Notes: a model not told the origin generated them from the sequence alone. Counted from the first letter of the stretch, positions 8,881-12,984 are shown. The stretch is DNA of 37,622 nucleotides from an uncultured archaeon (GCA_964534625.1 CAZHRF010000032.1:1-37622), one strand, 5' to 3'. Numbers and translations are program-made.

Positions 8881-9067
8881 AAAAATAACAAACGAATTTT
8901 AAAAAAAAATGGTCAAAAAAGAACTATATTAAAATGGGGAAGCAGTAAAATTGAAAAATATGTAGAAAAGAAAAAAGAGGGAAGTTTAGAAATTAAAAGC
9001 ATTGATTTCATCTAAAGTGTTATAGGTATTTTTAACAGCTTGACGAAATTGTTGTTCGGTCTTAGCA
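8881..9067. repeat. Left copy of 187-bp direct repeat; contains a degenerate tbp 3' end (8986-9067, minus strand)
   Basis: Aligns without gaps to 12798-12984 (offset 3917) with 7 mismatches. Confidence 0.97.
8986..9067 (-). pseudogene. Displaced 3' fragment of tbp
   Basis: Reads AKTEQQFRQAVKNTYNTLDEINAFNF* versus TBP AKTEQQVRQAVENTYNTLDEINAFDF*; in-frame stop just upstream (9079-9081), no start codon. Confidence 0.9.
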
Positions 9068-9147
9068 ACAGATGTAATTTAACTTTTTATAATCAAAATA
9101 TTATATGTTTTTAGGTAAAAAGTAATAATAATGTTAAGAAGGTTAAA

Positions 9148-12100
9148 TTGATGTCAACATATGATCAGAACCGATTATTATTAAGTACAACTATATTTGA
9201 AGAATTGATAGACATTATAGTTAAAATATGGCAAAATAAAAAGTCAACCTATTTCTTTAACAATTTAACTATTAACATTAAAACAGGTGATATAAGTTTT
9301 CATAATATAATCGGATCACTTGGCACTAATTATCTCAGATATGGATTACGCCTTGATGAGATTCGTGAAACTGATCCACAATTGTATGATCAGATTTTGA
9401 TTGTTGACTCAAAGATATCTGATGATTTAGGCAATAATCTGATTTTTCAACTTGCTAAAGAATTTTCTTTATTTGATAAGCGAGATATTTCCAACAATCT
9501 ACTCATCAATTACCGAAGTTATCTATTTTTAGTTGATAACTACTATGACAGCTATTCAATCTGTTATGTAGCAAATCAAGTTATGAGAATATTATTAGAA
9601 CAAGAAAATTGTGATATCAATTACTTCAATGTACTAAAAATTTGGCATGACAAAATAAGACCATTTTTAGGTGTATATACTATGCTTACTAACAATCTTG
9701 GAGTAGGTAAGGTTATAAACTCTGAAATCGAAATAAATGATAAGATCATCAAATATGTTTCACGTGATGGTATATTTGAGTTAGATGTGACAGATCTCCA
9801 ATCTGAATGGATTATTAAAATAAACAGACAAGAACTTCTAGGATTTTTGGATATAAGTCATCTTGAATATAAGCCAAATAATCTTACTGTCTTGATGAAT
9901 AAAAGACAATTTATTGATTATGGAAATTCAAATCGAATACTGGAAGCAAAGATTTACGATATAAATAGTAAACGTGGTAGCTTAAGAAATGCCTTTGCAT
10001 GTTGGACTGATCAACTTAAAACTACAACTACTAAATTCATAAGTAATGCATTTCCTAACTTTTTTACTGAAAAAAAAGATTTTGATATTGTTGAGCAAAT
10101 TAGATCTCATAATGTTAATATTCGGGTTCTTAAGAAGAAACTAAAAGATTACTATATCCTTGAAACATCTTATGATCGTATACAGAACACCTTTGTTGAC
10201 GATTTATATGTTACTAGTCAAAAACCTTCAATAAGGTGGTATAGACGCTTTGGACTAAAAATGCAACTTTTATGTTTATCAAATGGTGGATTTAAGCCCC
10301 ATTTAGTTTATGTTGATTCTGGCATAAATAATGAGTTATATCTTCTAGCTAAGAAAATCAAAATATCTTCTTATTCATCAAGTCTAGATTATGTATCTGA
10401 TTCACTTCACTTCTATAACGGGTTACATTTATCTATCAATACGAAAACGCTGGACAAGGTGTTAAGGAAGAAGGATTTATTGAAAAGAAACCAAACTATA
10501 AGTTTTGCCTTTCAAGTTAATGTTGGATTAATGAACAATTATAAAACACCACGAATAATAGTTTGGGGAGTAAAAAGTAAAGATAGAATCAAGACTCACT
10601 TTTCTAGTTATAATGAGATATTAAACATCTATAAAACGATTGCAAGTTCAAACATTCAATGTGGTAACCTAGAATTAATCAGTACAGAATCCCCCAAAAA
10701 TCAATCATCTGATAACAGATATGTTGATCTAATTTTAAAAGTAAATCCCAAGAATGAAGTAGTAGATATCCAAGAAAAACATAGTGTATCAGCTATAACA
10801 CCAGACGGCAAATATGAAACTGAATTGTTTCCCTCAGTAAGATGGTTCTACAAATTATATGAGTCATCTAACCCCTCAATTATAGCTCACTTTTTAGAGG
10901 ATGAATCTAATCTCACATCTTATTTTCTAAGTTTCAGCAGAGAGAATTTAACAAAAAATAAACAACATATTTCTTTTCCAAAGATATGGCTTGATAGAGG
11001 TCTTCTGAGGACTTCTACAATAAATGGGGATAATGATCTATTTAGGACTGATCTGAGAGATGCAAAATACTTCTTTCAAAGATTCTTAACAACAAGAAAA
11101 GTTCCAAGTTTATCGGTACATAATTCGGATGAAGTTGAACAAAATAAAACAAAATTAAATCTAGTATGGGTTGACTTGAAAAGAGCTATAAAAGATTTAA
11201 GCCAACTTGCTAAAATTATTTTAAGGTATAAAATAGACACAAAAAATGATTTTTTATCAAACACAGTTACTCAAATTCACAATTGTTTGTTACTAAATGG
11301 AGCGATTTCTCACCTGCATTTGGATGTTGATCTTTTATGGTTAAAGATCCAAGATACGATAATTTATTATGAGGAGTTATCTAAATCAGTTATACTTACA
11401 TCGTTCTCACAAATTTCTGTTGACTTTGATAGTCAAAAGGAAATAATTTCCGTTAATCCTTTTGAATATAATGCTTCCTTTTTTCCAATAGATAATCAAT
11501 CAACGAAAAAACTTACTGGCTTTAAACGGTTTCTGAAAAGATTATTTGAGGCATATTTCCCCTTTTCAAATTACCGAATGATTGAAGAGCCAATGATGTG
11601 TTTCTCTCTTCTCTATCCTTACATAGATGTAAAAATAATGAATTTGTATGCAATGGACGCCTTTGATTTTTTATTGGTTAAACCTCTGATTGACTCTTCT
11701 ATTTATGCTGAAGTTGATAAAAAGATGAAAACAAGGAAGGTTTTTCCTCTCGTTAATTTTATTAGTGGAACATTATCTAGCATTGATATCAGAACAACAT
11801 TCATTCACAATACAAAATATCTCCTTTTGGACGAATTAGGTTTTTACAAATTTATCAAACACATGAAAGATCAGCTTATAGAAACAAAAGCCCCACGGGG
11901 AGGGGATTATGAGAGTAAACCCGGAGATGAACATAGTCTTTTTCATAGTATTAGCAGTGAAAGACAAAAAAGCGCAGTGAGAATTTTGAAGTCACGAACT
12001 TTAAGAACATTGAATCGATCCCCTTTATACAGGAAACTGTTAAAAAACAGAATGATACAGGTATTTGAATATAATAAAATTAGAGGATTAGGAAAATTAA

Positions 12101-12849
12101 AGATTAGAATAGCGACAGTTCCACCCTCAATCGGTCCTTATCCATCAACTAGTCAAAATCTGTTTTCTGTAGCTGGAAATAATATAGAAATCAATATTTT
12201 TTTGCTATCTGATATGGTAAGAGCCATAAAGAAAGGATTGATTCTTGATAAATTAGATCTAAAATTACTAAAAAAACTACAGCAAATTATTAAAATGGTA
12301 AGAAAAAAGACGTATTCAATTGATCCAAAATCTGAGATGTATAAGCGACTTACAATGAAAAAATTTACAATTCGGGAATTCTATTATGGAGTAAGAATAT
12401 TAACCTTGACTGAAGCTATCTATAAACAGAAATGTACCATTCAACAAAGATACCAAATGGCATCAATGAATAACAACAAAGAAAAAATAATACTCCCTAC
12501 AGAAAAGGATGTTAAAGAAAAAAAGGTTAGAACAACAATTCCATCAGCTATCGAATTAGAGTTGGAATTAATAAAAGAAAATAATCTTTTTTCGCATTAT
12601 ATTATTAAGGATCCAATAATTCGACCAAAACCTGATAGGGACCTAAAATACATTGAGGGAAAAAAGAAAATATTAACTAAGTTTACAAAAATGAGACAAG
12701 TCGTTCTACACGATAAATTGAAAGAAGAGATTAAAAAAACAATGGAACTATATGAAAAGCAAGATATGGAAGAAAACTACGATTTGGACTATTTTAAAAA
12801 AATAACAAACGAATTTTATAAAAAAATGGTCAAAAAAGAGCTATATTAA
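9148..12849 (+). CDS. 1,233-aa orphan protein; putative degenerate TBP-like repeats plus PD-(D/E)xK-like motifs
   Basis: Uninterrupted 3.7-kb ORF in AT-rich DNA, so very likely coding; domain calls are by-eye only (see findings). Confidence 0.75.
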   Translation: MMSTYDQNRLLLSTTIFEELIDIIVKIWQNKKSTYFFNNLTINIKTGDISFHNIIGSLGTNYLRYGLRLDEIRETDPQLYDQILIVDSKISDDLGNNLIFQLAKEFSLFDKRDISNNLLINYRSYLFLVDNYYDSYSICYVANQVMRILLEQENCDINYFNVLKIWHDKIRPFLGVYTMLTNNLGVGKVINSEIEINDKIIKYVSRDGIFELDVTDLQSEWIIKINRQELLGFLDISHLEYKPNNLTVLMNKRQFIDYGNSNRILEAKIYDINSKRGSLRNAFACWTDQLKTTTTKFISNAFPNFFTEKKDFDIVEQIRSHNVNIRVLKKKLKDYYILETSYDRIQNTFVDDLYVTSQKPSIRWYRRFGLKMQLLCLSNGGFKPHLVYVDSGINNELYLLAKKIKISSYSSSLDYVSDSLHFYNGLHLSINTKTLDKVLRKKDLLKRNQTISFAFQVNVGLMNNYKTPRIIVWGVKSKDRIKTHFSSYNEILNIYKTIASSNIQCGNLELISTESPKNQSSDNRYVDLILKVNPKNEVVDIQEKHSVSAITPDGKYETELFPSVRWFYKLYESSNPSIIAHFLEDESNLTSYFLSFSRENLTKNKQHISFPKIWLDRGLLRTSTINGDNDLFRTDLRDAKYFFQRFLTTRKVPSLSVHNSDEVEQNKTKLNLVWVDLKRAIKDLSQLAKIILRYKIDTKNDFLSNTVTQIHNCLLLNGAISHLHLDVDLLWLKIQDTIIYYEELSKSVILTSFSQISVDFDSQKEIISVNPFEYNASFFPIDNQSTKKLTGFKRFLKRLFEAYFPFSNYRMIEEPMMCFSLLYPYIDVKIMNLYAMDAFDFLLVKPLIDSSIYAEVDKKMKTRKVFPLVNFISGTLSSIDIRTTFIHNTKYLLLDELGFYKFIKHMKDQLIETKAPRGGDYESKPGDEHSLFHSISSERQKSAVRILKSRTLRTLNRSPLYRKLLKNRMIQVFEYNKIRGLGKLKIRIATVPPSIGPYPSTSQNLFSVAGNNIEINIFLLSDMVRAIKKGLILDKLDLKLLKKLQQIIKMVRKKTYSIDPKSEMYKRLTMKKFTIREFYYGVRILTLTEAIYKQKCTIQQRYQMASMNNNKEKIILPTEKDVKEKKVRTTIPSAIELELELIKENNLFSHYIIKDPIIRPKPDRDLKYIEGKKKILTKFTKMRQVVLHDKLKEEIKKTMELYEKQDMEENYDLDYFKKITNEFYKKMVKKELY

Positions 12850-12984
12850 CATGGGGAAGCAGTAAAATTGAAAAATATGTAGAAAAGAAAAAAGAGGGCA
12901 GTTTAGAAATCAAAAGCATTGATTTCATCTAAAGTGTTATAGGTATTTTCAACAGCTTGACGAACTTGTTGTTCGGTCTTAGCA
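12798..12984. repeat. Right copy of 187-bp direct repeat (end of giant ORF + intergenic + intact tbp 3' end)
   Basis: Matches 8881-9067. Confidence 0.97.

What the first reader, a model, noticed from the sequence alone, without database searches (positions are those of the whole stretch)
8881..12984. 3.9-kb single-gene islet inserted at the 3' end of tbp with a 187-bp duplication
Seen: 8881-9067 equals 12798-12984 with offset 3917 and no gaps. Mismatches are at 8902, 8923, 8933, 8982, 8994, 9033 and 9048. The repeat spans the last 82 nt of tbp, the intergenic gap and the last ~16 codons of the giant ORF. In the left copy all three tbp-part changes are non-synonymous (V>F, E>K, D>N) and TAT>TAA breaks the giant-ORF tail, so the left copy is the dead one. 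Known: elements integrating into gene 3' ends restore the gene and displace the old tail, usually in tRNA genes and with an integrase. Inference: an element that uses the essential tbp gene as its attachment site, with no recognisable integrase or transposase. It could be mobilised by its own giant protein, in trans, or by homologous recombination of a 3,917-bp circle.
Basis: partly seen in the sequence, partly recalled or inferred. Interest (0 to 1): 0.85.

Follow-up and report, generated by a model that had tools for sequence, protein, structure and literature searches.

The report
Old insertion scar at archaeal tbp
In a Heimdall-group Asgard archaeon, a foreign 3.7-kb gene was inserted at the end of the TATA-binding-protein gene and left a decaying spare copy of that gene end behind; this is a familiar kind of recombination scar, common in this family, but the passenger is the free-standing, nuclease-like tail of the giant proteins of 'aloposon' elements.

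Summary
The 187-bp repeat and all seven mismatches are real, and independent contigs span both junctions. A family member has the empty gene order (PNPOx next to tbp), so the islet is an insertion. It is old: a 91-93%-identical relative has the same islet, left copy and purifying selection on the giant gene (dN/dS ~0.23). tbp is not a special att site. Single-copy direct repeats of 40-290 bp flank assorted cargo at about 5-10 places per Mb in three Heimdallarchaeaceae genomes, often on gene 3' ends and with a synonymous excess that points to donor alleles. No integrase, serine recombinase, reverse transcriptase or IS1634 was found in the MAG. Best reading: integrase-free gene-tail displacement by host recombination, with later gene conversion between the copies (one concerted site; repeat divergence 6% vs 14.5% in flanks). 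The giant ORF is not an orphan. It is a stand-alone ~1,250-aa module that elsewhere ends membrane proteins and an aloposon-type giant, with a PD-(D/E)xK-like motif (unconfirmed). Its homologs show no such flanking repeats, so self-mobility is unlikely. The scan noted the same scar type before in other Heimdall genomes.

The parts
7026..8225 (+). Cys/Met metabolism PLP enzyme (metC-like); the most frequent convergent neighbour of tbp in the family loci
   Evidence: Pfam PF01053; directly next to tbp in G001, G005 and several g4 genomes
8280..8747 (+). PNPOx-like gene, left host flank
   Evidence: Pfam PF01243; directly convergent with tbp in G002/L017
8881..9067 (.). Left (non-coding) copy of the 187-bp repeat
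   Evidence: present in the relative with a 64-nt insertion
8986..9067 (-). Displaced tbp 3' end (last 26 whole codons plus stop), with V>F, E>K, D>N
   Evidence: the relative's copy is still codon-intact
9068..12797 (.). Unique inserted segment (3,730 bp); no terminal inverted repeat, tRNA or Rfam match
9084..9091 (+). TATA-box-like TTTTTATA 60 nt upstream of the giant ORF, kept in the relative (promoter inferred, not tested)
   Evidence: sequence and alignment
9151..12849 (+). 1232-aa soluble, basic protein: stand-alone C-terminal module of a Heimdallarchaeaceae giant/membrane protein family
   Evidence: leave-one-out HMM E 2.6e-61 over aa 54-1144; no TM or signal peptide; dN/dS ~0.23
9916..9951 (+). 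PD-(D/E)xK-like motif D256...E265-x-K267 (family consensus R-x-G-x-D-L...E-x-K)
   Evidence: D256 and K267 invariant in 9 family members; fold not confirmed
12798..12984 (.). Right (live) copy of the repeat: giant tail, T-rich tbp terminator region, tbp 3' end
12903..13484 (-). tbp (193 aa), the only full copy found in this MAG

Best explanation
The islet is a fixed, integrase-free insertion made by host recombination. Steps: (1, inferred) DNA from a related cell carried the giant gene with its promoter next to a tbp 3' end. (2, inferred) It was added by one homologous crossover in or near tbp plus one illegitimate join 82 nt before the tbp stop, either as linear DNA (homology-facilitated illegitimate recombination) or as a circle (single crossover). 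(3, shown) tbp stayed intact and a second copy of its tail and terminator now lies 3,917 bp downstream of it. (4, shown) The islet predates the split from a 91-93%-identical lineage and the giant gene is under purifying selection. (5, inferred from one site plus a conservation test) The two copies have since exchanged sequence by gene conversion or excision-reintegration. The cargo is most likely a nuclease-type conflict effector, a detached C-terminal module of aloposon-type giants (function inferred, about 50%); it is a passenger, not the mobilising enzyme.
For: Empty gene order in G002. Both junctions spanned by independent contigs. 17 two-copy repeats of this kind in G000, 8 in 0.78 Mb of G001, 2 in 0.4 Mb of G004, with cargo such as VapBC-like pairs, an FTR1-like permease and NosD proteins, some nested. 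G005 GNAT|macro junction duplicated over 275 bp with reciprocal decay, empty in 10 relatives. Pooled dead-vs-live differences 54% synonymous vs 40-43% expected if the copies started identical (p 1e-3 to 7e-5), which fits donor and recipient alleles. No PF00589, PF07508, PF00078 or IS1634 match in the MAG. Position 9043/12960 is A/A here and G/G in the relative. Repeat divergence between lineages 10/166 vs 32/220 in flanking non-coding DNA, p 0.008.
Against: At tbp itself there is no synonymous excess (0 synonymous, 3 non-synonymous), so a distinct donor allele is not shown for this event. No empty allele from the same genus was found, so the original junction is unknown. The repeat includes 17 codons of the giant, as expected if an older giant copy was displaced or duplicated. 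The MAG is 90% complete and integrases are often unassembled. The concerted signal rests on one site, read from two runs of one study.
Confidence: 0.58

Rival explanations
1. Tandem duplication or allele displacement followed by deletion. The giant (or an older allele) already sat against tbp; a segment ending inside tbp was duplicated and most of the first copy was lost, leaving its last 187 bp.
For: The repeat starts inside the cargo ORF here (52 nt) and at pepF (33 nt). The giant's tail is about as long as that of homologs L066/L071. Fragments from gene interiors lie upstream of the same gene at C12, C18 and C38. No synonymous excess at tbp.
Against: No remnant of a giant in 8748-8880. The last 17 residues lack the Trp seen near the end of most homologs, which fits a tail recruited from A-rich host DNA. 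The reciprocal decay at GNAT|macro and the pooled synonymous excess fit insertion of outside DNA.
Confidence: 0.22
2. Remnant of, or satellite mobilised in trans by, a site-specific integrative element (e14/icd-like or aloposon-like) whose attP carried the tbp tail.
For: Geometry matches icd - e14 - icdC (PMC13626634). The cargo is homologous to the C-terminal part of an aloposon-type giant.
Against: No tyrosine or serine recombinase found in the MAG. Targets differ at each locus. No second tbp-tail copy within 1.5 kb in 29 tbp loci of relatives. No tRNA, ParA or twin giants in the islet.
Confidence: 0.1
3. Self-mobile element: the giant protein cuts the target with widely staggered nicks and inserts its own gene, making a long target duplication.
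For: PD-(D/E)xK-like motif. Patchy family at many unrelated loci, 9 of 31 family genomes, often several or truncated copies. Both the tbp and pepF repeats begin in an A-run.
Against: Other family members show no flanking long duplication (one weak 41-bp match at C22). Unrelated cargo shows the same scar. The three copies in this genome are only about 20-26% identical. No RT, transposase or recombinase profile match.
Confidence: 0.07
4. Assembly artefact joining a separate replicon to the chromosome through the repeat.
For: Logan contigs of the source runs break at the repeat, so they cannot phase it.
Against: The copies differ at 7 sites. L227 and L038 span the junctions. Islet and flank contigs have the same depth (76.9 vs 73.9/78; 151 vs 144/147.5).
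Confidence: 0.02

Closest known systems
e14 prophage at icd with the icdC pseudogene, E. coli K-12 (PMC13626634)
   Same: Intact gene, inserted DNA, then a displaced non-coding copy of the gene's 3' end; recombination between the copies can restore or chimerise the gene.
   Different: e14 is a 15-kb prophage with its own integrase (own knowledge) and excises under SOS; this islet is one gene with no recombinase and no evidence of excision.
Homology-facilitated illegitimate recombination and 3'-end displacement (V. cholerae T6SS effector-immunity arrays and rhs, PMC5361080; PMC2884548)
   Same: No integrase; one homologous anchor plus an illegitimate join; the old gene end is shifted downstream; nested events occur (G001 C24, C48); the cargo may be an effector.
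   Different: Here the anchors are housekeeping genes scattered over an archaeal genome, the tail is replaced by an equivalent tail, the cargo is convergent, and no immunity gene is present. HFIR is shown experimentally in bacteria; I found no test in Asgard archaea.
Aloposons with the giants Otus and Ephialtes (Wu et al. 2022, PMC8813620)
   Same: The module forms the C-terminal ~1,280 aa of a 5230-aa G001 giant whose first ~3,800 aa are homologous to a 5557-aa twin giant in G004 (probably Heimdallarchaeum, inferred); that giant retains the R-x-G-x-D-L...E-x-K segment.
   Different: The islet has no twin giants, no ParA gene, no tRNA target and no ectodomain or signal peptide.
IS1634/IS1549-type elements with long variable target duplications (listed in PMC2266710; size range from own knowledge)
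   Same: Duplications of tens to hundreds of bp at varied sites.
   Different: No terminal inverted repeats and no IS1634 transposase found in this MAG.

Membership tests
Integrase-driven integrative element (e14-like) | Displaced copy of the target gene's 3' end, gene restored | tested here: met
Integrase-driven integrative element (e14-like) | Tyrosine or serine recombinase encoded in the element | tested here: not met
   Single ORF without Pfam/NCBIfam/PHROG recombinase match
Integrase-driven integrative element (e14-like) | Recombinase available in trans | tested here: inconclusive
   PF00589 and PF07508 not found in a 90%-complete MAG
Integrase-driven integrative element (e14-like) | Excised circle or empty att site in the population | tested here: inconclusive
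   Only contigs available; flat depth in X1/X3; the X5 joint is the left copy, not an empty site
HFIR / 3'-end displacement scar | Foreign DNA next to a homologous anchor, no dedicated recombinase, empty site in relatives | tested here: met
HFIR / 3'-end displacement scar | The two tails derive from different alleles (synonymous excess) | tested here: inconclusive
   Met for the pooled cases (p 1e-3 to 7e-5), not for tbp alone (0 of 3)
HFIR / 3'-end displacement scar | RadA dependence and DNA uptake | not testable with these tools
   uncultured organism
Aloposon | Tandem giant genes of 3,000-6,000 aa | tested here: not met
   one 1232-aa ORF
Aloposon | Integration at a tRNA gene | tested here: not met
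   no tRNA in the window
Aloposon | Upstream four-gene block with MinD/ParA ATPase | tested here: not met
   islet holds no other gene
Aloposon | Homology to the giant proteins | tested here: met
   C-terminal module of the G001 giant, which is homologous to the G004/G007 giants
IS1634-type transposon | DDE transposase and terminal inverted repeats | tested here: not met
PD-(D/E)xK nuclease | Conserved D ... (D/E)xK motif | tested here: met
PD-(D/E)xK nuclease | Restriction-endonuclease fold or profile match | tested here: inconclusive
   region modelled at pLDDT <50; no Pfam, PDB or Hjc profile match
Polymorphic toxin system | Exchangeable C-terminal module on different N-terminal carriers | tested here: met
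Polymorphic toxin system | Adjacent immunity gene and demonstrated toxicity | tested here: not met
   no partner gene in the islet; toxicity itself not testable here

The most novel reading that the evidence does not exclude
Heimdallarchaeaceae have a dedicated, integrase-free route for adding DNA at gene ends with 100-300-bp duplications, with the repeats kept recombinogenic by gene conversion. It shuffles nuclease modules between aloposon giants, membrane receptors and free-standing genes, and may use the module's own nuclease.
Probability: 0.12. Interest if true: 0.78.

Novelty: new member of a known kind. Interest (0 to 1): 0.4.

Why it matters
The scar is of a known kind. It shows that Heimdall-group archaea, the closest known prokaryotic relatives of eukaryotes, routinely add accessory genes without integrases, even at the only tbp gene found, and that these events can be counted and dated. 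The cargo links a free-standing 'orphan' to the uncharacterised aloposon giants and suggests their C-termini are exchangeable effector modules. A soluble 1232-aa stand-alone form is a more practical object for testing what those giants do than a 5,000-aa surface protein.

Tried and rejected
The X5 joint 8927->12858 looked like an empty site; L038 shows it is the relative's left copy with a 64-nt insertion, mapped to our right copy. Lower islet depth in X5 (about 5.8 vs 8.3) is not counted as evidence, as contig depth is not a share of cells. No RNA holder listed. Homolog searches with single sequences found only the protein itself or a 91%-identical fragment; viral and metagenome scans found nothing. 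Single-sequence fold failed (pLDDT 31.8). The alignment-based model was weak (46.9), and Foldseek, VIA-align and Atlas gave no usable match (best Z 8.4 to a helical part of an aminoglycoside phosphotransferase, rmsd 4.3 over 104 residues). A reverse-transcriptase reading of the FVDD motif was dropped as it is not conserved. No PADLOC match. The pepF cargo ORF is not detectably a member of the family. The pepF empty site could not be matched to the same left neighbour in relatives. The family tree does not place the islet protein (long branch, weak support). No complex prediction was run.

Full report
Observation. The two copies align without gaps at offset 3917 with exactly the seven reported mismatches, and the sequence occurs nowhere else in the 3.37-Mb MAG. 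The right copy holds the last 17 codons and stop of a 1232-aa ORF, 53 nt of intergenic DNA and the last 82 nt of tbp (Pfam TBP). The host is a Heimdallarchaeaceae-like archaeon: its TBP clusters with proteins so named, and the DNA is held by microbial-mat runs. Contig L227 spans the right junction at 100% identity and contig L038 from a diverged population spans the left one. Islet and flank contigs have the same depth in the source runs. The structure is real.

Insertion and age. In family members tbp faces metC-like, PNPOx-like or other genes; G002 has PNPOx directly against tbp. None of 29 other tbp loci has a second tail within 1.5 kb. A 2024 microbialite population, 91-93% identical, carries the giant gene along most of its length and the same left junction. 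The joint listed for X5 is not an empty site: it is that population's left copy with a 64-nt insertion. Over 153 codons the giant has 14 synonymous and 13 non-synonymous changes, dN/dS about 0.23, like the PNPOx tail. So the islet was in place before these lineages split and its gene is maintained.

The copies have not evolved independently. Four of the seven differences (8902, 8994, 9033, 9048) are private to our left copy; the relative's left tbp tail is still codon-intact. At 9043/12960 both of our copies have A and both of the relative's have G (two runs of one study). The repeat differs between lineages at 10 of 166 alignable sites, against 32 of 220 in the non-coding DNA beside it (p 0.008). 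Gene conversion or excision-reintegration is the simplest reading, but it rests on one concerted site plus this test, and selection on the left copy as a terminator or promoter could explain part of the conservation.

The architecture is general. The same genome has an 845-aa orphan ORF between 285-bp repeats carrying the pepF 3' end. A screen for two-copy direct repeats of 40-600 bp found 17 in G000, 8 in 0.78 Mb of G001 and 2 in 0.4 Mb of G004; not all of these are gene-tail insertions. Cargo includes toxin-antitoxin-like pairs, a permease and surface proteins, and some cases are nested at one gene end. In G005 a GNAT-macro junction is duplicated over 275 bp with each copy keeping one intact half, and 10 relatives have the empty junction. 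Pooled over 11 cases, 97 of 178 coding differences are synonymous, against 40-43% expected if the copies began identical, so many tails came from different alleles. tbp itself shows no such excess. No terminal inverted repeats were seen, and no tyrosine or serine recombinase, reverse transcriptase or IS1634 transposase was found in the MAG (90% complete).

The giant protein. It has no family match, but iterative searches show a family found in 9 of 31 genomes of this family and in none of 52 other genomes of the class searched. A leave-one-out profile matches aa 54-1144 at E 2.6e-61. Elsewhere the module follows a signal peptide, ectodomain and several membrane helices in 2,200-2,500-aa proteins, or ends a 5230-aa giant in a G001 cluster with a second large gene and a ParA-like gene. 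That giant is collinear for ~3,800 aa with a 5557-aa twin giant in G004, which matches the description of aloposons (PMC8813620; the identification of G004 as Heimdallarchaeum is my inference). The islet gene starts at about the module boundary and has no membrane helix. The family conserves R-x-G-x-D-L...E-x-K (D256, E265, K267 here), also visible in the G004 giant. This resembles a PD-(D/E)xK nuclease site, but no profile or structure test confirmed it. Homolog loci show no long flanking duplications.

Mechanism and verdict. The best fit is additive integration by host recombination: a homologous crossover at the tbp end plus an illegitimate join, as proposed for 3'-end displacement in T6SS and rhs arrays (PMC5361080; PMC2884548), giving the same layout as icd - e14 - icdC (PMC13626634) without an integrase (0.58). 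Duplication or displacement of an already resident giant cannot be excluded, because the repeat starts inside the cargo ORF and no same-genus empty allele is known (0.22). A trans-mobilised integrative element (0.10), self-mobility (0.07) and misassembly (0.02) fit worse. The scan has reported this scar type in other Heimdall genomes. The finding is a new member of a known kind; its added value is the dated, concerted repeat and the link between the cargo and aloposon giants.

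Noticed in passing
window 6934-6982 and 18490-18538: A 49-nt internal piece of the thermosome gene (96% identical) lies in the intergenic gap upstream of the metC-like gene, 11.5 kb away. Similar gene-interior fragments sit upstream of their own genes on C12, C18 and C38.
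   Followed up: partly
L039 (G000 C3 37355-40492): Second islet of the same layout: 845-aa orphan ORF between 285-bp repeats carrying the pepF 3' end; G014 C72 has an independent pepF-tail duplication around a small gene.
   Followed up: yes
L038:1103-1362: In run SRR31660261 the giant gene is interrupted after about codon 154 by unrelated DNA that resembles a repeated sequence of G000 (C43, C3), probably an IS insertion.
   Followed up: partly
L038:355-418: The relative's left copy has a 64-nt insertion bounded by a 14-nt direct repeat.
   Followed up: no
window 12951-13093: tbp differs from the relative at only 1 of 143 sites here, against 22 of 397 further upstream (p 0.013); possibly a recombination tract or extra constraint.
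   Followed up: partly
L040 (G000 C22 16861-19398) and L077 (G000 C27 2678-9802): Two further family members in this genome: a 5'-truncated copy whose start lies in a multi-copy small element, and a full 2374-aa membrane-anchored form.
   Followed up: partly
L034/L035/L107 (G001 C7 18929-51039): Aloposon-like cluster (ParA-like gene, protease-like gene, split ~4,100-aa giant, 5230-aa giant) with no tRNA found next to it.
   Followed up: partly
G000 whole genome: No PF00589 match at all, not even a XerA-type recombinase, although all 14 control genomes have one; may reflect incompleteness.
   Followed up: no
G000 C19:56-13477 and C35: A 13.4-kb block is 100% identical on two contigs (inverted), probably assembly redundancy.
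   Followed up: no
L036 (G005 C96): Two tbp paralogue copies 4.2 kb apart, 88% identical over 307 bp; the second is cut by the contig end.
   Followed up: no
G001 and G005: A large expansion of NosD/beta-helix surface genes (about 120 and 86 DNA matches), some at duplication-flanked sites.
   Followed up: no
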